A program made the translations under genes and the position numbers. The notes below the pieces were generated by a model. It did no database searches and was not told the origin of the DNA. It worked only from the letters and a program-made list of their open reading frames with translations. From an uncultured Methanosarcinales archaeon (GTDB lineage: Archaea; Nanobdellota; Nanobdellia; Woesearchaeales; JABIAG01): a stretch of 64,000 nt of DNA. Positions within the stretch are counted from its first letter, which is position 1, and the number at the start of each line of letters is the position of its first letter. Location: assembly GCA_964544335.1 (NCBI GenBank), contig CAZJAJ010000001.1, forward strand, positions 29,199-93,198, in the 5' to 3' direction. Positions 1,127-42,438 of the stretch are shown piece by piece.

Positions 1127-1939
1127 ATGTATATGAATCAACCACAAACCTATGCAGGAAGCACGCAAATGCACTACAGCGTAGCTGTGCAACCAAGCAT
1201 GCACACACCTCACTATCATTTCTCCACCATGCCTGCCCAGGAAACATATCATTTAGAAGGACAAATGCACTTCTCAAGCACACAAGCATATACAAAGCAA
1301 CATGCACTATCTAATCAATACGATCTCTATATCGCTCAACCTACAGCAGTCTTTTCTCCTGAAACATTTATAACGCAACCAACGAGGTTTATTGGATCTG
1401 CTGCAGAAATTGAAGAATATGTCAAAGAAGCATTCCTACACACTACAGGAAAAGCACTTCCAGATAACATTGAAATTACGCTGTGCACTAAAGAAGAGCT
1501 CAAAGAAGCAAATGCACGTTGGGGTGGCACATGGAGCGAGGGTATTCAAGGGTTTTGTATTAACAAACACGGGAAAGGCATTTCACATGTCTTTGTTAAA
1601 ACAGGTGAGCTTGCAAATGTGATGCTTACCGTAGGTCACGAGCTAGGTCACGTGCAATCGCCTGCTCTTAAAAATCATGCTGATGAGGAAGCAAAAGCAT
1701 TTGCATTTAGTATGGCGTTTATGAACGCTATTCGAAAAAAGGATATTGCAGGATTAAAAGAGGTGTTTGTAGAGCATCTTCCTGCACACAATGGCATCCA
1801 TGATGTGGGGTATGTGTATGTAGCAAATAAAGTACGATTTGGAGAAGATCCGTTTGATGTATTTAGAACATTAGTAGAGCAAAGTTTAAATACACAGCAA
1901 ATAGGAAGTCTCTATGGTCTACTACAACGCTATGGATAA
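1127..1939 (+). CDS. putative zinc metalloprotease-like protein (HExxH) with a Q/H/Y/T-rich low-complexity N-terminus
   Basis: VGHELGHV motif; N-terminal low-complexity region. Confidence 0.45.
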   Translation: MYMNQPQTYAGSTQMHYSVAVQPSMHTPHYHFSTMPAQETYHLEGQMHFSSTQAYTKQHALSNQYDLYIAQPTAVFSPETFITQPTRFIGSAAEIEEYVKEAFLHTTGKALPDNIEITLCTKEELKEANARWGGTWSEGIQGFCINKHGKGISHVFVKTGELANVMLTVGHELGHVQSPALKNHADEEAKAFAFSMAFMNAIRKKDIAGLKEVFVEHLPAHNGIHDVGYVYVANKVRFGEDPFDVFRTLVEQSLNTQQIGSLYGLLQRYG

Positions 1940-31258: not shown

Positions 31259-31960
31259 TTAGAACGTAATTTCTCCAAAGTCAAAGAGTTCTTTGTTTTG
31301 TGTAATAGTAATGTGTGCTTTTTTGATGTCTTGTAAAAATGGACTTAGAAATGTATGTTCCTGTATGTCAGTTCCAATGGTGAGTTGCGAGAATGATGGA
31401 AGGACATAGAGTATTTTCTTTTGATAAGTAGTTTTCATAAAGCATTTGTAGAGTTCTCGTTTGTTATCTTCTTCTAATGCAAATGCAGGGTGTTCATGAC
31501 CTATGATTATAGTGGTTGCTTTGGTGAAGTCTTCGTTTTCTTGTAGTGTGTCACCATGACAAATGTAGATGTCATTGAGTAGGAAGTGATCTGTAACTTG
31601 GGTGTGTGTTTTTTCTGCGATGATTTCTGTGACTTTGTCATGATTACCTTTGATCAGTGTGAGTTGTGCATGTTCTTGAATGAGCCTGATGACTTTTTTT
31701 ACTTCTCGCCATTCTTGATCGGAGATGGTTCCAAAGTCATGTTTGAGATCACCATTAATGATGACGTGCTTTGGTTTATGTGTAGTGAGAAGTGATTTGA
31801 TGTCTTTGAGGAGTTGATCTATTTGATGATTGGGAACAAGCGTTCCTTTTTTCCGCATAGATGCTTCCATACCCAGATGAAGATCTGATATGATGAGTGT
31901 GTTATGTACTAAAATTCCTCTATCTACATATTGCAGTTTCATGTGAGTTAGAGTATTCAT
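31259..31960 (-). CDS. calcineurin-like metallophosphoesterase
   Basis: SDLHLG, INGDLKHDF, GNHD and GHEHP motifs. Confidence 0.7.
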   Translation of the reverse strand: MNTLTHMKLQYVDRGILVHNTLIISDLHLGMEASMRKKGTLVPNHQIDQLLKDIKSLLTTHKPKHVIINGDLKHDFGTISDQEWREVKKVIRLIQEHAQLTLIKGNHDKVTEIIAEKTHTQVTDHFLLNDIYICHGDTLQENEDFTKATTIIIGHEHPAFALEEDNKRELYKCFMKTTYQKKILYVLPSFSQLTIGTDIQEHTFLSPFLQDIKKAHITITQNKELFDFGEITF

Positions 31961-37105: not shown

Positions 37106-37324
37106 GAAAGATTTATAATGGCTAATTATAGCTACCACTACGTTAAAACGGATAATTTCACCTTTTTAACCAAAAAGCGATTTGGCGTCGTAATGACGCT
37201 TTCCTCGAATCCGTCATAAGCAGATGAATTTTCTGAAAAAAACAGAAAAAAGCGAGCGGAAACTTCAGATGACAGCGGAAAAGTCATTCTCAGGTTATGC
37301 TGTCAAAAGAAAGTGAATTAAGAA
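37106..37324. repeat. R1 copy a, 219-bp non-coding repeat module
   Basis: 100% identical to 39747-39965; begins with the GAAAGATTTATA core (TATA-like); contains hairpins gcgtc-gtaat-gacgc and gacagc...gctgtc with T-runs on the minus strand. Confidence 0.9.
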
Positions 37325-37689
37325 TTTGATGTGAAAGGGGCAATAAATCCTACTAAAATTCCGATAATGAGCATAAAAACTCCAAACCCTGAACTGATAA
37401 ATATGCCTCCGATAAACGCCAGACCTACAGCAATTAATCCAAGCCAACCTCCTAAAAAATAAGAACCAGCAAGAGATCCTAGAGTTGCAATAATTGGAAT
37501 GAGCCAAAAAGCAAAAGAGTAGATTGGGTCTGGAGATAATTCTTGAATTATAGATGCAAATGCTTTGATAATTTCTGATTCTGGATTAACTCCAACATGA
37601 ATCCATAAACCGCTTAGAAAACCAAATCCTAAAACGAATTCTTGAACAAATGATTTTCCTATATCTTCAGCACCCATTTTATACTCCAA
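37318..37689 (-). CDS. membrane protein, hypothetical (cassette 1)
   Basis: Four TM helices; its 3' end runs 7 bp into R1. Confidence 0.35.
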   Translation of the reverse strand: MEYKMGAEDIGKSFVQEFVLGFGFLSGLWIHVGVNPESEIIKAFASIIQELSPDPIYSFAFWLIPIIATLGSLAGSYFLGGWLGLIAVGLAFIGGIFISSGFGVFMLIIGILVGFIAPFTSNS

Positions 37690-38371
37690 AAAATGATTTA
37701 ATTTTATCCCAAATTGAAGATTTCATCTTTTCGTCTGGATTATAAGAACCATCAAAATATCTTTTCAACAAACCAATTGTTCTATTGTATGCTTTTCTAT
37801 TTTTTGCTAATCTCCTATCAAACATTTTTCTCTGTAAGAAATCATATTCTCTTAGAATTTTACCGCCTTTTAGAAGTGTTGCTCTTACAACAATATGTTT
37901 AAAGTTAGGGTGTGGTTTATTTTTAATGTAGTTTTTAACATGACGAAACTTATCTGGGCTTAATTTCATAGCTACAGTGGAATGAAAGTAATATTTTCTT
38001 TCATAGTCAATTGGTTGAAGTGTACAATAAGGTTGTAGTTTTTTTGACAGGTGCCATCTGAATTCATCTAAATTAGAACTTGGATGTATATCAACATATA
38101 CAACTCTATTTTTCTCAAAAGTGTCGAATCCTTTGACGGTGAATTTCATTAAAGATTGCTTTGAACATATAGAATAAAAATCACTGATTAATTTTCTCTC
38201 ATTATTTGTTTGAAACGGTGCAACCAGAGTAATATGTGGGACTGGTCTTTTCTTCTTAGCATTACCTATTCTGCATCTTTTATCAACTTCCCATATCAGC
38301 TTTTTTAATTCAGATTTTGCTTTTCCTTGAAATCTGAATTCAATTAGATAATGAACCATTTTTCCACGCAT
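37679..38371 (-). CDS. 2H phosphoesterase superfamily protein (LigT/2'-5' RNA ligase-like cyclic phosphodiesterase)
   Basis: Two H-x-T/S-x motifs (PHITLVAPF and YFHSTVAMK) with appropriate spacing. Confidence 0.7.
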   Translation of the reverse strand: MRGKMVHYLIEFRFQGKAKSELKKLIWEVDKRCRIGNAKKKRPVPHITLVAPFQTNNERKLISDFYSICSKQSLMKFTVKGFDTFEKNRVVYVDIHPSSNLDEFRWHLSKKLQPYCTLQPIDYERKYYFHSTVAMKLSPDKFRHVKNYIKNKPHPNFKHIVVRATLLKGGKILREYDFLQRKMFDRRLAKNRKAYNRTIGLLKRYFDGSYNPDEKMKSSIWDKIKSFFGV

Positions 38372-38711
38372 AATATTTTTTTATTATATCTTTAGTGCCT
38401 GTTGAAAGCTTAATTGATTTTTCAGGTAAGTAATAATCTATTCGTTTAACTTCGTGTTTTGGTTTTGGAGTGCCTTTAGCTTTTATCAAAACAACTGTGT
38501 GTTCATGGCTGTGACTTTCATGTCTAAATATTATTTTAGCTTCATTTGCCATTAATCCAGTTTCTTCTTCAAGTTCACGAATTGCTGCTCTAAATCTACT
38601 TTCTCCTTTATCTGCTCCACCACCTGGCAAAAGATAAGTTCCACCCATTGAAGTTAAGAGAATGCCTTTGGATGTTTCAACAATAGCAGTTCCTCTTCTT
38701 CTTTTTGACAT
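38340..38711 (-). CDS. NUDIX hydrolase
   Basis: Nudix box GGGADKGESRFRAAIRELEEETGL. Confidence 0.8.
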   Translation of the reverse strand: MSKRRRGTAIVETSKGILLTSMGGTYLLPGGGADKGESRFRAAIRELEEETGLMANEAKIIFRHESHSHEHTVVLIKAKGTPKPKHEVKRIDYYLPEKSIKLSTGTKDIIKKYYAWKNGSLSN

Positions 38712-38713
38712 TT

Positions 38714-39319
38714 CTAATCCTCAAATAATTTTTTTGAGTCGTATTTTTCTTGGTCTCCTTGATTTATCTGATTTCCAAGACTAAGATATTCTAACTCTTT
38801 GAATCTATGAACCCATGCGACAATATTTCTTGGAAAGATATTTACTCTTTCATTGTATTTTTGAACAACTCTGTTGTATGCTAATCTAAAGTTTCTTAAT
38901 TTTGATTCCATTCTTGAGATGCTTCCACGTCCCATAATACTTTTATGCAACGCATCTGCTTTTAATTTGGGATATCTCTCAAAAACTGCTTGGATTTTAA
39001 GGAATGCATTATCTACTTCTTTGAATGTTTGAGCTTTTTCATTTAATGAAGCGTCTTTTGTCCATCGGCTTCTCGCCTCAATAACATCTTTCAATGCTTT
39101 GTATTCATGAATGTCATATTTTTTGATAACTTGTGCAAGTGCAGGCAACATATCTATTCTTTGTTGCATTAAAACATCAATATCTGCAAATTTCCTCTTC
39201 GCTCTATTTATCCAATATTGAAATTTGTTATAAATTACTATCCATCCTTTTATTAGCCAAATACTTGCTAATATCGCAATGATTCCAATTGCCCATTTGA
39301 TTATTGTTGTTTGATCCAT
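38714..39319 (-). CDS. lemA: LemA family protein
   Basis: N-terminal TM then ...RYPKLKADALHKSIMG...AYNRVVQKYNERVNIFPRNIVA matches LemA. Confidence 0.75.
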   Translation of the reverse strand: MDQTTIIKWAIGIIAILASIWLIKGWIVIYNKFQYWINRAKRKFADIDVLMQQRIDMLPALAQVIKKYDIHEYKALKDVIEARSRWTKDASLNEKAQTFKEVDNAFLKIQAVFERYPKLKADALHKSIMGRGSISRMESKLRNFRLAYNRVVQKYNERVNIFPRNIVAWVHRFKELEYLSLGNQINQGDQEKYDSKKLFED

Positions 39320-39330
39320 GTTAAGTCCTC

Positions 39331-39531
39331 CTAAACAGAGAAATAATCTTTCTCATTGATGTTTTTTGGTTTGACTTCTGCCTTGAAGTAGGTAATCATC
39401 TGTTTAATGGCTTCTTGTTTAGTTTTCAAATTATTGACTAATTTGTATATCTCAACAATTCTATCCTCTTCCGATGATAAATCAATTTGAATTTTAACCA
39501 TTATATATCGCCACGATATATGGAAATACAT
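39331..39531 (-). CDS. small hypothetical protein (66 aa)
   Basis: ORF; first gene of cassette 1. Confidence 0.3.
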   Translation of the reverse strand: MYFHISWRYIMVKIQIDLSSEEDRIVEIYKLVNNLKTKQEAIKQMITYFKAEVKPKNINEKDYFSV

Positions 39532-39556
39532 TGAAATATATAAATCTTTCTGATAA

Positions 39557-39758
39557 AAAAAGAAAAAAAGCGATCGTTACTTCGCTCCTTTTTGCCTACC
39601 ACACCCAAAGTATTCGCCTAAGGATGCTAGGTCTCGTTTCTGCTTAAAACGTCTAAAAGTCCAAAATTCCTTAATTTCAGACTTTTTACTCTTTGGTGGT
39701 TTAGTGACGCTTTTTTGAAAATCCGCCATAACTACTACACAATGACGAAAGATTTATA
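39557..39758. repeat. R2 copy a, ~202-bp non-coding repeat module
   Basis: ~96% identical to 41212-41414 (six substitutions, one 1-nt indel); ends in the GAAAGATTTATA core shared with the R1 start. Confidence 0.85.
39569..39594. terminator. hairpin plus T-run (agcga-tcgttactt-tcgct-cc-ttttt), bidirectional terminator-like element inside R2
   Basis: Perfect 5-bp stem; poly-T on the plus strand and poly-A upstream (T-run on the minus strand). Confidence 0.35.
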
Positions 39759-39965
39759 ATGGCTAATTATAGCTACCACTACGTTAAAACGGATAATTTC
39801 ACCTTTTTAACCAAAAAGCGATTTGGCGTCGTAATGACGCTTTCCTCGAATCCGTCATAAGCAGATGAATTTTCTGAAAAAAACAGAAAAAAGCGAGCGG
39901 AAACTTCAGATGACAGCGGAAAAGTCATTCTCAGGTTATGCTGTCAAAAGAAAGTGAATTAAGAA
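39747..39965. repeat. R1 copy b, 219-bp repeat module
   Basis: Identical to 37106-37324. Confidence 0.9.
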
Positions 39966-40004: not shown

Positions 40005-41174
40005 TCAATAAAAGAATCTTCCGTTAGGAGTAGCATTTGGAGTTGGCTCCTTGATTTTGTGAGCATATGCTTTTACAACATCTTCAAATTCTTTAAAATC
40101 AGTAGTTCTAAAATGTTGTAATGCTTCTTCTAAATCTCCTGTAATTACATAAGGTTCTCCTGTGAAAATAGAATTTTTACAATCTTGTTTTCTTCCCATA
40201 GATGTAAAGATAAAAGGAGCTTCTTCAAAGCCTGGAGCAGATGAAGTCCTATATTCGGCTACATTAACAGAACCACTTCCTCTGAACATTGGTTTTTGCA
40301 TATCAAATTTACTCATGTGCCCTAAAAAATTATTTGAAAAGTATAACATTGGCTTTGTAGATGTTGTGTATGTTCCTTGCATATACAATGAACCATCATC
40401 ATCATCTTTAGCAACACCTAATAGATAAACTTCCTCTTTTGATCCAACATAAACAAAATCTCCATGTTCTAAATCTTTAGTTGCTCTTGTCAACCAATCA
40501 TGTGCAACCCACATATTAAAACTACCATATGAAGGTTTTCTTGAATCACCGTTGCTTTTAAATCTATTAATCAATCCAGTGATCATGTTTCCTTTAGTAA
40601 CCCATTTAGGCATTTCTAAATCAGTACCTCTATTCTCAAGAAATGGAACTACATTTCTTTCGAAATATCCAGGTCTAGTAATCTCTTTTAATTTATCAAC
40701 CAATAAACTTTCATCAGCAATAACAGTTACACCATCAACTGTTTTTTCAACACGACCATCTCCAAATTTGTTTGCTAGAGTTAAATATAGGTCGGTGTGA
40801 CTTTCAGCAGAAGGCAGATACAAACCAAATTCCTGATCAAAATCAAAGTCAAGTCTGTGAGTTCCAAGAATTTCTATTCTTGCTTTAGCAGTAATTCTTT
40901 TTGAGGGATCTTTATGAGTATATGGATCGCCTTCTTGTGGCATCAATATATTCCCTATACACATTATGCTTGTATGTCTATTGGCTCGAACTCTCAATGG
41001 ATCGCTAGAACCAATTTCAGCACCTTCATATTTTAACAGAGAAACAGAATCTCCAAACTGAATCAATATATTTTGTCCTTTTTCTAGAGGTTCAACTACT
41101 TGTTTTACTGGAAGTAGCATATTATCTAAAGATTCAACTTCATTACTATTTGTAGTAGCTAATTGTTCCCCCAT
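40005..41174 (-). CDS. hypothetical protein (389 aa), sole gene of cassette 2
   Basis: Long ORF, no recognised motif. Confidence 0.4.
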   Translation of the reverse strand: MGEQLATTNSNEVESLDNMLLPVKQVVEPLEKGQNILIQFGDSVSLLKYEGAEIGSSDPLRVRANRHTSIMCIGNILMPQEGDPYTHKDPSKRITAKARIEILGTHRLDFDFDQEFGLYLPSAESHTDLYLTLANKFGDGRVEKTVDGVTVIADESLLVDKLKEITRPGYFERNVVPFLENRGTDLEMPKWVTKGNMITGLINRFKSNGDSRKPSYGSFNMWVAHDWLTRATKDLEHGDFVYVGSKEEVYLLGVAKDDDDGSLYMQGTYTTSTKPMLYFSNNFLGHMSKFDMQKPMFRGSGSVNVAEYRTSSAPGFEEAPFIFTSMGRKQDCKNSIFTGEPYVITGDLEEALQHFRTTDFKEFEDVVKAYAHKIKEPTPNATPNGRFFY

Positions 41175-41211
41175 AACTACTTGAAAATAGTATTTATATA
41201 TAAATTTAATT

Positions 41212-41414
41212 AAAAAGAAAAAAAGCGATCGTTACTTCGCTCCTTTTTGCCTGCAACACCCAAAGTATTCGCCTAAGGATGCTTAGGTCTCGTTTCTGCT
41301 TACAACGTCTAAAAGTCCAAAATTCCTTGATTTCAGACTTTTTACTCTTTGGTGGTTTAGTGACGCTTTTTTGAAAATCCGTCATAACTACTACACAATG
41401 ACGAAACATTTATA
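41212..41414. repeat. R2 copy b, ~203-bp repeat module
   Basis: See R2 copy a; ends with the core variant GAAACATTTATA. Confidence 0.85.
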
Positions 41415-42438
41415 TACTCACCCAGCTACACAGGCCATAATGACCGAAAAAAAAGAGTCAAAAATAGTAACATTTCTAGGAGCAGCAGCTCTTGCTACAT
41501 ACATTACAGGAGCACTGTATCACGCCATCAGATCAGAGCCAGATACAAAGCCTAGCAGAATTGAACATATTGTAGAAGAACCTAAAGAAAAAAAGGTAGA
41601 GAATATAGAGGTCTCAGTACCAAAAGCATACGAAGCAGTAAAACATCGTGTAGTTAATGGAAAGATTCCAGTTACAGTAAAGTATGGATATAACAAAGTT
41701 GACCTCCAAATCCCACTTGAAGAATATCTTCAATCAGTTGCTATTTCAACTGCCGAAGGTCCAATGAATGAACACTATGAACAAGTTATTCAGCACGTGT
41801 TTGCTAGTAACTACGATAGTCTTGATCCCCTAGTAAAAGAAATTAAGGGAAGATACTATAGGCGAGACGGATTCGAAGATGCCTCACGCATGTTCTTTAA
41901 TGGCAATAATATTAGATATGTGCTTGACCAAGACAATAGATACAATCAAGACGGTAAAAGAGTACTACGAATGGAACTTCCAAAAACACCTATTCAAACA
42001 CTTGTTGATGGTACTGGAGATTGTGAAGATTTCTCACTTGCACTAGGATATACTCTACACAGAACAGGAAAAGACGTATGTATTGCAACCATGTATAGAA
42101 CAGATGAGAATGGTGAAGTAAAGGGACATACAATCATGGGTCTTGAAGAAGATGCACTAGGTATTGAATACGATGAACTACTTGATCAACTCAATGCCAT
42201 TGGAAGCAATCGAGCAAGAACAAAGAGATATGTTAATTCACACGTTACTGCGCAAACAAGCGATGGACCAATTACCTACAGACTTATTGAACCACAGAGA
42301 GAAAATAAGAAGTGGGAAAGTGATACCATTGGCGACTATGTACTGCAAAGTATCTACATTCCAAAACGAAATGAATGGATAAGGGCAGACCACCTTACTC
42401 GAAAAGACGTTGTGAGTGAACACCGTAAAAACTATTAG
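41371..42438 (+). CDS. transglutaminase-like cysteine protease superfamily protein, membrane-anchored
   Basis: GTGDCEDFSLALGYTLHRTGKDVCIATMY matches the transglutaminase-like core (G.C..F......R..GIpaR); TM helix near the N-terminus. The likely start is the internal MTEKKES at about 41443, outside R2. Confidence 0.6.
   Translation: MKIRHNYYTMTKHLYTHPATQAIMTEKKESKIVTFLGAAALATYITGALYHAIRSEPDTKPSRIEHIVEEPKEKKVENIEVSVPKAYEAVKHRVVNGKIPVTVKYGYNKVDLQIPLEEYLQSVAISTAEGPMNEHYEQVIQHVFASNYDSLDPLVKEIKGRYYRRDGFEDASRMFFNGNNIRYVLDQDNRYNQDGKRVLRMELPKTPIQTLVDGTGDCEDFSLALGYTLHRTGKDVCIATMYRTDENGEVKGHTIMGLEEDALGIEYDELLDQLNAIGSNRARTKRYVNSHVTAQTSDGPITYRLIEPQRENKKWESDTIGDYVLQSIYIPKRNEWIRADHLTRKDVVSEHRKNY

What the first reader, a model, noticed from the sequence alone, without database searches (positions are those of the whole stretch)
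37325..39746. Cassette 1 cargo: 2H phosphoesterase plus NUDIX hydrolase plus LemA plus two small membrane/unknown proteins
A 2H phosphoesterase (the family of LigT, CPDase and phage Acb1-type anti-CBASS enzymes) is co-encoded and overlapping with a NUDIX hydrolase. 2H enzymes open 2',3'-cyclic phosphates and cyclic or 2'-5'-linked oligonucleotides. NUDIX enzymes clear ADP-ribose and NDP-X products. Together, in a mobile-looking cassette, they could be a nucleotide second-messenger clearing (anti-defense) module or an RNA-repair/ADP-ribose salvage module. LemA and the membrane protein suggest envelope association.
Basis: partly seen in the sequence, partly recalled or inferred. Interest (0 to 1): 0.6.

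Follow-up and report, generated by a model that had tools for sequence, protein, structure and literature searches.

The report
Mobile archaeal LemA–Nudix–2H nucleotide-processing cassette
A five-gene operon (small DUF2683 protein, membrane protein LemA, a Nudix hydrolase, a 2H cyclic phosphodiesterase and a small membrane protein) that recurs in many DPANN archaea sits here on a 2.6-kb integrase-less cassette that appears able to move between promoter sites; it probably processes unusual nucleotides rather than blocking host immunity.

Summary
All the genes are present, intact and on the minus strand.

The cargo is not a one-off. The set DUF2683-like ORF, LemA, 2H and Nudix recurs in about 15-17 of 36 stand-alone 2H loci from different archaeal species. 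In 18 other loci the same 2H carries a C-terminal calcineurin-type phosphoesterase and never has a Nudix or LemA neighbour.

By fold, the 2H is closest to YjcG and to plant ADP-ribose-1'',2''-cyclic-phosphate phosphodiesterase. It is not a LigT equivalog and not specifically Acb1-like. No relative was found in IMG/VR.

The cassette looks mobile:
- It has a B-O-P'-c1-P-O-P'-c2-P-O-B' repeat architecture with a 12-nt TATA-like core.
- Its GC content is low.
- A 98%-identical copy in another metagenome joins a different chromosomal flank exactly at the core.

The most likely function is membrane-proximal degradation or salvage of cyclic-phosphate and pyrophosphate nucleotides, either ADP-ribose>p-type or 2',3'-cNMP. 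The substrate is unproven. The anti-defence reading is weakly supported.

The parts
37106..37117 (.). Core O, copy 1 (GAAAGATTTATA), at the junction between chromosomal flank B (SufE side) and arm P'.
   Evidence: The 12-mer (with G or C at position 5) occurs 5 times in the window against 0.06 expected.
37118..37324 (.). Arm P', copy 1. It lies downstream of cassette 1 on the coding strand and contains T-rich, terminator-like tracts.
   Evidence: 100% identical to 39759-39965. Also present after the same cassette in L071, L072 and L005.
37318..37689 (-). Small membrane protein (123 aa; more likely 119 aa from the internal Met) with 3 predicted TM helices. This is the variable end of the cargo.
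   Evidence: L071 and L072 call a 119-aa product here. L005 carries an unrelated 150-aa TM protein at this position.
37679..38371 (-). 2H phosphoesterase (230 aa) with both HxT motifs intact and a roughly 50-aa C-terminal helical extension ending in an amphipathic helix.
38340..38711 (-). Minimal Nudix hydrolase (123 aa). It overlaps the 2H start by 32 nt, consistent with translational coupling that is conserved in relatives.
38714..39319 (-). LemA-family protein (201 aa) with a single N-terminal TM anchor.
39331..39501 (-). Highly conserved 56-aa protein ('orf66'). It is the first gene of the operon and a possible regulator.
   Evidence: It keeps 58-79% identity in tblastn (61-79% in the 16-sequence alignment A2) in loci where the 2H is only 45-80% identical. 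NCBI names a member of its 90%-identity cluster 'DUF2683 family protein'.
39539..39550 (-). BRE/TATA-like promoter of the operon. It has the same 12-mer as core O, in inverted orientation.
   Evidence: (I2); sequence.
39557..39746 (.). Arm P, copy 1. On the minus strand it holds a 50-aa basic ORF (39729-39577) followed by a hairpin and T-run terminator (39590-39557).
   Evidence: 97% identical to 41212-41402. Sequence. The ORF frame is broken by a 1-nt indel in copy 2. Only 3 real homologues exist in 1.8e9 representative proteins.
39747..39758 (.). Core O, copy 2, at the P-O-P' junction between the two cassettes.
39759..39965 (.). Arm P', copy 2.
40005..41174 (-). Cargo of cassette 2: a 389-aa protein of unknown fold, conserved in DPANN archaea.
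41212..41402 (.). Arm P, copy 2.
41403..41414 (.). Core O', copy 3 (GAAACATTTATA), at the junction with chromosomal flank B'. It doubles as the TATA box of the orphan gene starting near 41440.

Best explanation
What is shown:
- The region is a five-gene operon with its own TATA promoter.
- It encodes a small conserved DUF2683-like protein, a membrane-anchored LemA protein, a minimal Nudix pyrophosphohydrolase, a catalytically intact 2H cyclic phosphodiesterase translationally coupled to the Nudix, and a small multi-pass membrane protein.
- The core set (small ORF, LemA, 2H, Nudix) is a recurrent module in DPANN and some other archaea.

Inferred mechanism:
1. The 2H opens a cyclic phosphodiester on a nucleotide. 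The substrate would be ADP-ribose-1'',2''-cyclic phosphate or a 2',3'-cyclic nucleotide.
2. The Nudix cleaves the remaining pyrophosphate linkage. In sister genomes a calcineurin-type phosphoesterase fused to the C-terminus of the same 2H would do this step.
3. The products return to the 5'-NMP and ribose-phosphate pool.
4. The enzymes work close to the membrane, held there by LemA, the small TM protein and the amphipathic C-terminal helix of the 2H.
5. The small ORF probably regulates the operon.

Mobility:
- In this genome the operon is the cargo of a 2,641-bp cassette with no integrase.
- The cassette carries about 200-nt arms (P and P') and a 12-nt TATA-like core.
- It is inserted in tandem with a second cassette that has the same arms.
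- The two lie between the divergent genes for SufE and an orphan protein.
- The cassette was most probably placed there by site-specific recombination at the core, carried out by a recombinase encoded elsewhere.

Conservation of the module:
- tblastn and clustering of 57 species-level loci plus close relatives found the same gene set in Woese-, Pace- and Nanoarchaeota and in Hadarchaeota. 2H plus Nudix alone occurs in Bathyarchaeia and Nitrososphaerales.
- Of 36 stand-alone 2H loci, 17 have Nudix, 14 LemA and 15 the small ORF within 2.5 kb. None of the 18 2H-MPE fusion loci has any of them (Fisher p = 3e-4).
- Fusion and operon forms are interleaved on the 2H-domain tree. They therefore look like alternative partners of one family.

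Fold:
- The AF2 model has pLDDT 89.5.
- The best PDB matches are YjcG 2D4G (7e-8) and the Arabidopsis Appr>p cyclic phosphodiesterase 1JH6/1FSI (5e-6).

Accessory genes inside the module in relatives:
- A uridine-kinase/NRK1-like kinase in 4 loci.
- A marginal Macro domain in one locus.
- PMC9503650 describes 2H, Macro, Nudix and calcineurin-like enzymes as processors of ADPr>P.

Membrane link:
- LemA has one TM helix and the downstream protein three.
- Other small TM proteins, or zf-AN1-TM-CAP proteins, lie next to the 2H in many loci.

Mobility:
- Repeat architecture.
- The core 12-mer occurs 5 times against 0.06 expected.
- Low GC.
- L071 is 98.3% identical over window 39407-37102 and then continues into unrelated genes exactly after the core.
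- L004, L005 and L072 carry the cassette with the same arm ends.
- The exact 2H and LemA proteins are absent from the Logan assemblies that hold the identical SufE, p389 and p355 flanks.
- In other lineages an IS6-family transposase lies directly upstream of the small ORF in 3 loci, and tyrosine recombinases lie nearby in 4.
- The 2H in L071 carries a nonsense and a frameshift mutation, as expected of a dispensable accessory gene.
Against: - No substrate is demonstrated.
- The Nudix is closest to the uncharacterised 3F13 (1e-25). Its next matches are an Ap4A hydrolase and MutT/RppH-type enzymes, not ADP-ribose pyrophosphatases. It also lacks the proline about 15 residues after the Nudix box that typifies ADPRases (my own knowledge of the motif, read against the sequence).
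- The Macro call rests on one locus at 23.6 bits against a 22-bit cut-off, with no PDB sequence hit.
- No Tpt1/KptA, ART, TIR or other ADPr>P source was found in the module.
- The function of LemA is unknown, so the membrane-scaffold role is a guess.
- The regulator role of the small ORF is unsupported. There is no Pfam or PDB hit, and hhalign against CopG and Arc was negative.
- No recombinase was found in the window, and the arms match no known att, attC or dif type.
- The short-read graph also allows cassette 1 to be a separate circle rather than a tandem insert.
Confidence: 0.45

Rival explanations
1. Nucleoside salvage for an auxotrophic DPANN cell. Imported or membrane-proximal RNA breakdown products (2',3'-cNMPs) are opened by the 2H and dephosphorylated by the fused calcineurin-type domain in sister genomes. 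The nucleoside is then re-phosphorylated by the uridine-kinase-like enzyme. The Nudix feeds NDP-X and dinucleotides into the same pool.
For: - 2H-MPE fusions occur in 18 of 54 loci.
- A UCK/uridine-kinase-like gene sits inside the module in 4 loci.
- The neighbours are membrane or extracellular proteins.
- The module is concentrated in DPANN lineages, which typically lack de novo nucleotide synthesis (my own knowledge).
Against: - In the Nudix-type operons no enzyme would remove the 2'/3'-phosphate.
- The family also occurs in Methanosarcina, which is not an auxotroph.
- The cassette is dispensable. The 2H is a pseudogene in L071, and the cassette's proteins are absent from the assemblies that hold the identical flanks.
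Confidence: 0.22
2. RNA end-healing kit. The 2H opens 2',3'-cyclic phosphate RNA ends. The Nudix trims 5'-triphosphate, NAD or ADPr caps to a monophosphate. The P-loop kinase or the MPE found in relatives completes the healing before ligation.
For: - The 2H fold matches LigT/ThpR, ASCC1 and Usb1.
- The Nudix profile hits RppH-type enzymes at about 1e-6.
- PMC9503650 describes 2H, Nudix and calcineurin sets in RNA-repair neighbourhoods.
- L003 places the 2H beside a DEAD-box helicase.
Against: - No ligase, Hen1, Tpt1 or RNA-binding domain is present in any of about 60 neighbourhoods.
- Archaeal RtcB uses 2',3'>P ends directly, so opening them to 2'-P would hinder ligation (my own knowledge).
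- The constant membrane-protein partners are not expected for RNA repair.
Confidence: 0.13
3. Anti-defence module. The cassette degrades immune second messengers of a host or of the cell itself (cyclic oligonucleotides, gcADPR, cOA), as phage Acb1 does.
For: - The cargo sits on a mobile, low-GC cassette.
- 2H enzymes can cleave cyclic oligonucleotides (PMC9503650).
- DPANN archaea live attached to hosts (my own knowledge).
Against: - Acb1 is no closer than generic 2H proteins.
- There are no relatives in IMG/VR.
- There is no specific PADLOC match; only the Nudix gives a generic hit to candidate model PDC-S07.
- The module is chromosomal in dozens of species.
- No link to CBASS, Thoeris or type III CRISPR genes was seen in any neighbourhood.
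Confidence: 0.07
4. The 'cassette' architecture is not mobility. The repeats are a duplicated intergenic segment or an assembly join of strain variants, and the operon is an ordinary chromosomal locus.
For: - The arrangement across the 100%-identical 219-nt repeat rests on one metagenome assembly.
- Logan contigs all stop 30 nt into the repeats, so none of them spans a repeat.
- No recombinase was found in the window.
- The arm sequences were absent from JGI and IMG/VR scans.
Against: - A P-O-P' junction must exist in the reads for the assembly to contain it.
- L071 joins the same cassette, P' and core to a different flank, with similarity ending at the core.
- Four other assemblies show the same arm ends.
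- The region has low GC.
Confidence: 0.13

Closest known systems
Appr>p disposal pathway of yeast and plants (Tpt1, then 2H CPDase/Cpd1, then Macro Poa1, then Nudix Ysa1), and the 2H-Nudix-calcineurin/cREC neighbourhoods of jumbo phages (PMC9503650)
   Same: A 2H cyclic phosphodiesterase is paired with a Nudix. The Arabidopsis Appr>p CPDase is the second-best fold match. A calcineurin-type enzyme acts as an alternative partner, and one relative has a marginal Macro gene.
   Different: There is no Tpt1/KptA, sirtuin or ligase in the module. The Nudix is not ADPRase-like. LemA, DUF2683 and small TM partners are constant here and are not part of those systems.
B. subtilis YjcG-type 2H proteins
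   Same: It is the best sequence and fold match in the PDB.
   Different: Identity is only 22%, and the score of 27 bits is far below the 129-bit equivalog cut-off. The archaeal protein has an extra 50-aa C-terminal extension. YjcG itself has no known function.
Phage Acb1 anti-CBASS 2H nuclease
   Same: It shares the 2H fold and the HxT catalytic motifs.
   Different: The similarity is no more than generic (rank 13, TMq 0.42). This family is not viral, and the protein is larger.
Integron gene cassettes and CALINs, including archaeal integrons (PMC9668308)
   Same: Both are promoter-proximal tandem cassettes that lack their own recombinase, are separated by a repeated recombination element, and carry variable cargo.
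   Different: The repeat is 409 nt, against 55-141 nt for attC (own knowledge). The crossover lies in the middle of the repeat. There is no GTTRRRY core and no IntI. Each cassette carries its own promoter.
Lambda-type attP with long arms, and tandem arrays of integrase-less satellites such as IMEX elements
   Same: The topology is B-O-P' ... P-O-B' with a short common core and roughly 200-nt arms containing short repeated motifs. The insertions are in tandem, and the recombinase would act in trans.
   Different: No integrase is known. No dif-like 11-6-11 site spans the core. The elements are only 1.7-2.6 kb and have no replication or structural genes.
Bacterial LemA-TPM ('phosphatase') gene pairs (own knowledge)
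   Same: A membrane-anchored LemA is encoded next to proposed phosphoesterases.
   Different: The partner enzymes here are a 2H and a Nudix rather than TPM, and the module is archaeal.

Membership tests
2H phosphoesterase superfamily | Two HxT/S motifs on an internally duplicated alpha/beta fold | tested here: met
   H46-I-T and H130-S-T are invariant in 25 homologues. PF13563 scores 60 bits. The AF2 model matches 2H structures with probability 1.0.
LigT/ThpR RNA 2',3'-cyclic phosphodiesterase (TIGR02258 equivalog) | Score at or above the curated 65.7-bit cut-off | tested here: not met
   32.1 bits.
YjcG (PRK13679 equivalog) | Score at or above the curated 129-bit cut-off | tested here: not met
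   27 bits, although YjcG is the nearest solved structure.
Acb1 anti-CBASS | Specific structural similarity to Acb1 and a viral origin | tested here: not met
   Acb1 models rank 13 and 29 with TMq 0.40-0.42. There are no relatives in IMG/VR.
Acb1 anti-CBASS | Cleavage of cyclic di- and trinucleotide signals | not testable with these tools
   This needs a biochemical assay.
Nudix hydrolase | Nudix box GX5EX7REUXEEXGU | tested here: met
   G31-x5-E37-x7-R45-E-L-E-E-E-T-G-L53, read. PF00293 scores 46 bits.
ADP-ribose pyrophosphatase subfamily of Nudix | A proline about 15-16 residues after the Nudix box (own knowledge), or closest similarity to characterised ADPRases | tested here: not met
   Residues 68-69 are S and H. 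The best PDB hits are the uncharacterised 3F13, then an Ap4A hydrolase. ADPRases reach only 4e-6 or weaker.
LemA family (PF04011) | A LemA domain following an N-terminal TM anchor | tested here: met
   107.7 bits. TM helix at residues 4-22.
Ribbon-helix-helix regulator (for the 56-aa ORF) | Detectable similarity to RHH families or structures | tested here: not met
   No significant Pfam hit (only a weak VapB_antitoxin match at E 0.039 in 2 of 16 members) and no PDB hit. hhalign against CopG and Arc gave probability below 1%. Only the beta-alpha-alpha pattern suggests this fold.
Integron gene cassette | An attC of 55-141 nt with R''/R' (GTTRRRY) core sites at the cassette boundary, and IntI nearby | tested here: not met
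   The repeat is 409 nt, the crossover is central, and the core GAAAGATTTATA has no GTT. No tyrosine recombinase was found in the window.
Xer/dif-exploiting element (IMEX) | 11-bp inverted arms with a 6-bp spacer at the junction (PMC2958812) | tested here: not met
   No such inverted repeat is shared by the three junctions.
Site-specific integrative element | An identical short core at every junction, with element-specific arms inside and unrelated host flanks outside | tested here: met
   Junction alignment of the three window junctions plus L071.
Site-specific integrative element | A cognate recombinase | tested here: inconclusive
   None was found in the 64-kb window. The rest of the genome was not available.

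The most novel reading that the evidence does not exclude
DPANN archaea may carry a previously undescribed kind of integrase-less gene cassette. Each would be a 1.7-2.6-kb unit that shares a roughly 400-bp attP-like backbone containing a tiny basic ORF. The units would insert, singly or in tandem, into BRE/TATA promoter cores and rebuild the promoter on both sides. One such cassette would spread a LemA-anchored 2H-Nudix nucleotide-processing module. That would also give the first functional handle on the widespread LemA family.
Probability: 0.25. Interest if true: 0.75.

Novelty: new variant of a known kind. Interest (0 to 1): 0.55.

Why it matters
- LemA and DUF2683 are widespread families with no known function. 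A tight, recurrent linkage to two well-understood nucleotide phosphoesterases gives a testable biochemical context for both.
- The mutually exclusive choice between a Nudix neighbour and a fused calcineurin-type domain narrows the possible substrates.
- The cassette architecture suggests that DPANN archaea exchange small promoter-equipped gene cassettes by recombination at TATA-like cores without an on-board integrase. That would be a new route of gene flow in these reduced, host-dependent genomes.

Tried and rejected
- The first NJ tree used the wrong half of the fusion proteins. Its clean 'two clades' result is invalid. The corrected tree shows fusion and operon forms interleaved.
- A possible third, degenerate backbone copy near 27 kb is not significant.
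- Rfam finds only a tRNA in the window. The backbone folds only moderately better than shuffled sequence (z = -3.2 and -2.2).
- Exact-pattern scans for the backbone in JGI metagenome contigs (two patterns) and in IMG/VR found nothing.
- An empty-site test through the right-flank gene failed because that protein is an orphan.
- RHH assignment of the small ORF is not supported.
- A dif-like site and an integron attC were both rejected.
- The window's stand-alone calcineurin-like gene at 31259-31960 is only generically related to the fusion domain.
- The cargo of cassette 2 gave a confident model but no fold match.
- Literature searches for LemA + 2H + Nudix and for DUF2683 found nothing relevant.
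Full report
**Observation**

The interval 37325-39746 holds a compact minus-strand gene string:
- a 123-aa protein at 37318-37689;
- a 230-aa protein at 37679-38371;
- a 123-aa protein at 38340-38711;
- a 201-aa protein at 38714-39319;
- a 56/66-aa ORF at 39331-39501/39531;
- a 50-aa ORF at 39577-39729.

Pfam assigns three of them:
- the 230-aa protein to the 2H superfamily (PF13563, 2.6e-16);
- the second 123-aa protein to Nudix (6e-12);
- the 201-aa protein to LemA (6e-31).

Supporting details:
- Both HxT motifs of the 2H are invariant across 25 homologues.
- The Nudix box is intact.
- The Nudix stop overlaps the 2H start by 32 nt. The same overlap is seen in relatives.
- LemA has one N-terminal TM helix and the first protein has three.

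**Genomic setting**

The window is an ordinary archaeal chromosome. It carries GatD, diphthamide synthase, an S-layer protein, GrpE/DnaK/DnaJ and MetRS. The closest relatives of its proteins are Woesearchaeota.

The 37-41 kb stretch has GC of 0.32-0.34, against 0.36-0.41 around it.

**The cargo is a recurrent module**

The 2H has 152 homologues with E ≤ 0.001 in the large protein collection.

A scan of one genome per species returned 57 loci. They come from Woese-, Pace-, Nano-, Aenigmat- and Iainarchaeota, Methanosarcinales, Methanoregulaceae, Bathyarchaeia, Hadarchaeota and Nitrososphaerales.

tblastn and clustering of all ORFs in these loci show two recurring gene orders:
- small ORF, LemA, then 2H followed by Nudix;
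- small ORF, LemA, then Nudix followed by 2H. This order is found in the window's clade and in a Hadarchaeota contig.

Of 54 usable loci, 36 have a stand-alone 2H. Within 2.5 kb of it:
- 17 have the Nudix;
- 14 have LemA;
- 15 have the small ORF;
- 4 have a uridine-kinase/NRK1-like P-loop kinase inserted between LemA and the 2H.

One relative (L006) has an extra gene there with a marginal Macro-domain hit (23.6 bits against a 22-bit cut-off, no PDB support).

The other 18 loci encode a protein of about 400 aa. The same 2H domain is N-terminal and a calcineurin-type metallophosphoesterase is C-terminal. None of these has Nudix, LemA or the small ORF nearby (Fisher p = 3e-4).

On a tree of the 2H domain alone, the two architectures are interleaved. 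An earlier tree was wrong and is withdrawn.

The Nudix partner is itself a well-defined orthologous group.

Small TM proteins or zf-AN1-TM-CAP proteins are frequent further neighbours.

**What the enzymes resemble**

The 2H:
- By sequence, its only PDB relative is B. subtilis YjcG (3e-5).
- By fold (pLDDT 89.5), the best matches are YjcG (7e-8) and the Arabidopsis Appr>p cyclic phosphodiesterase (5e-6). AKAP7-like proteins, Usb1, ASCC1 and LigT follow.
- It fails the curated cut-offs for ThpR/LigT and for YjcG.
- Against predicted viral structures, Acb1 appears only at ranks 13 and 29.
- No relative exists in IMG/VR.
- No protein of the cassette has a specific PADLOC match; only the Nudix gives a generic hit to candidate model PDC-S07.

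The Nudix:
- It is closest to the uncharacterised 3F13 (1e-25).
- Next come an Ap4A hydrolase and generic MutT/RppH-type enzymes. ADP-ribose pyrophosphatases are not among the close matches.

The 56-aa ORF:
- It is strikingly conserved. It keeps 58-79% identity in tblastn (61-79% in the 16-sequence alignment A2) in loci where the 2H is only 45-80% identical.
- NCBI calls a member of its 90%-identity cluster a 'DUF2683 family protein'.
- I could not show that it is an RHH protein.

**Mechanism**

Shown:
- an intact 2H and an intact Nudix that are co-translated;
- constant membrane-protein partners;
- a mutually exclusive alternative partner, the fused calcineurin-type domain.

Inferred:
- The 2H opens a cyclic phosphodiester.
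- The Nudix, or the fused domain in sister genomes, cleaves the second phosphoester or pyrophosphate bond.
- Cyclic-phosphate nucleotides are thereby returned to the NMP and ribose-phosphate pool near the membrane.

The published logic for 2H, Macro, Nudix and calcineurin processing of ADPr>P (PMC9503650), together with the fold match to the plant Appr>p enzyme, makes an ADP-ribose-type substrate attractive. The kinase and the fusion architecture fit 2',3'-cNMP salvage about as well. The Nudix subtype does not decide between them.

RNA end-healing and anti-defence remain possible but have less support. No ligase and no immune genes appear in about 60 neighbourhoods.

**The cassette**

Repeat analysis and the junction alignment give this layout:
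- flank B (SufE side);
- core O (37106-37117);
- arm P' (37118-37324);
- cassette 1;
- arm P (39557-39746);
- core O (39747-39758);
- arm P' (39759-39965);
- cassette 2 (a 389-aa protein);
- arm P (41212-41402);
- core O' (41403-41414);
- flank B' (an orphan gene).

The two P' copies are identical and the two P copies are 97% identical.

The core GAAAGATTTATA looks like an archaeal BRE/TATA element:
- It occurs 5 times in the window against 0.06 expected.
- One of those copies is the operon's own promoter.
- It lies about 25 nt upstream of the 50-aa ORF, about 72 nt upstream of SufE, and about 25 nt upstream of the orphan gene.

The insertion therefore rebuilds a promoter on each side. Each cassette also has its own TATA box just inside arm P.

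**Evidence from other assemblies**

- L071 is 98.3% identical to window 39407-37102. That span covers the small ORF (partial), LemA, Nudix, 2H, the TM protein, P' and the core. Exactly after the core it continues into unrelated housekeeping genes instead of SufE.
- L004, L005 and L072 (91-95% identical) carry the cassette with the same arm ends.
- L005 has a different TM gene at the variable end.
- Same-strain Logan contigs reproduce the flanks and cassette 2 at 100% identity. Most (L063, L064, L070) stop 30 nt into the repeats, which fits k = 31 graph breaks; that Logan uses k = 31 is my own knowledge. L069 instead spans the whole P' arm and the core without a break.
- The exact 2H and LemA proteins of cassette 1 occur only in the NCBI source contig, not in those Logan samples.

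Together with the low GC, this makes cassette 1 a polymorphic and most probably mobile insertion.

Caveats:
- No single read-level contig spans a repeat, so a free circle [P'-c1-P-O] is also compatible with the graph.
- No recombinase was found in the window.
- The arms are not attC-like or dif-like.
- The backbone is rare. Only three homologues of its ORF exist among 1.8e9 representative proteins. It is absent from the JGI and IMG/VR scans.

In other lineages the module lies directly downstream of an IS6-family transposase (3 loci) or near tyrosine recombinases (4 loci). In L071 the 2H is inactivated by a nonsense mutation and a frameshift. Both observations fit an accessory gene set that is transferred horizontally.

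**Verdict**

- The 'mobile cassette' impression is supported.
- The Acb1-type anti-defence idea is not supported.
- The nucleotide or ADP-ribose processing idea is plausible but unresolved at the substrate level.
- The finding is a new conserved gene neighbourhood built from known enzyme families, carried on an unusual integrase-less cassette.

Noticed in passing
window 40005-41174 (-): The cargo of cassette 2 is a 389-aa protein with 71 homologues in DPANN contigs, in varied contexts. Its AF2 model is confident (pLDDT 88.5), but it has no meaningful PDB fold match (TM about 0.1) and no Pfam family.
   Followed up: partly
window 41440-42438 (+): The right-flank gene is an orphan; its only hit among 5.8e9 protein clusters is itself. 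It has an N-terminal TM helix and a weak LapG/transglutaminase-like cysteine-protease hit (9e-5, far below the cut-off). Its TATA box is the third copy of the recombination core.
   Followed up: partly
window 39577-39729 (-) and 41206-41409 (-): The shared backbone arm encodes a 50-aa very basic ORF with its own TATA box and a hairpin/T-run terminator. Copy 2 has a 1-nt indel that changes the C-terminus. Whether it is a protein gene, an sRNA or only recombinase-binding DNA is open.
   Followed up: partly
loci L010, L012-L014, L016-L018, L022, L026, L034, L037, L038, L042, L049, L054, L055: The same 2H family occurs as a fusion of about 400 aa with a C-terminal calcineurin-type metallophosphoesterase. 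This form is found in Methanosarcinales, Methanoregulaceae, Aenigmatarchaeota and some Woesearchaeota. It often lies next to zf-AN1-TM-CAP-domain membrane proteins.
   Followed up: partly
L044 4280-5143, L059 3985-4908, L023 8-223: An IS6/IS240-family DDE transposase gene lies immediately upstream of the small ORF of the module in three different species.
   Followed up: partly
L071 1035-1730: In a 98%-identical copy of the cassette, the 2H gene carries a CAA-to-TAA nonsense change and a 1-nt deletion. It is apparently a pseudogene, unless these are assembly errors.
   Followed up: no
window 1361-1372 (+): A fifth exact copy of the 12-nt core (C variant) lies inside or next to an ORF far from the cassettes. 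It could be chance or another potential target site.
   Followed up: no
cluster of the 56-aa ORF (P0203, NJL43714.1): A member of the small ORF's 90%-identity cluster is deposited under Nitrosarchaeum sp. (a 13-kb contig). This suggests either mis-binning or recent transfer across phyla.
   Followed up: no
window 31259-31960 (-): A stand-alone calcineurin-like phosphoesterase lies 5 kb from the cassette. It is only generically related (about 26% identity) to the domain fused to 2H in other genomes.
   Followed up: yes
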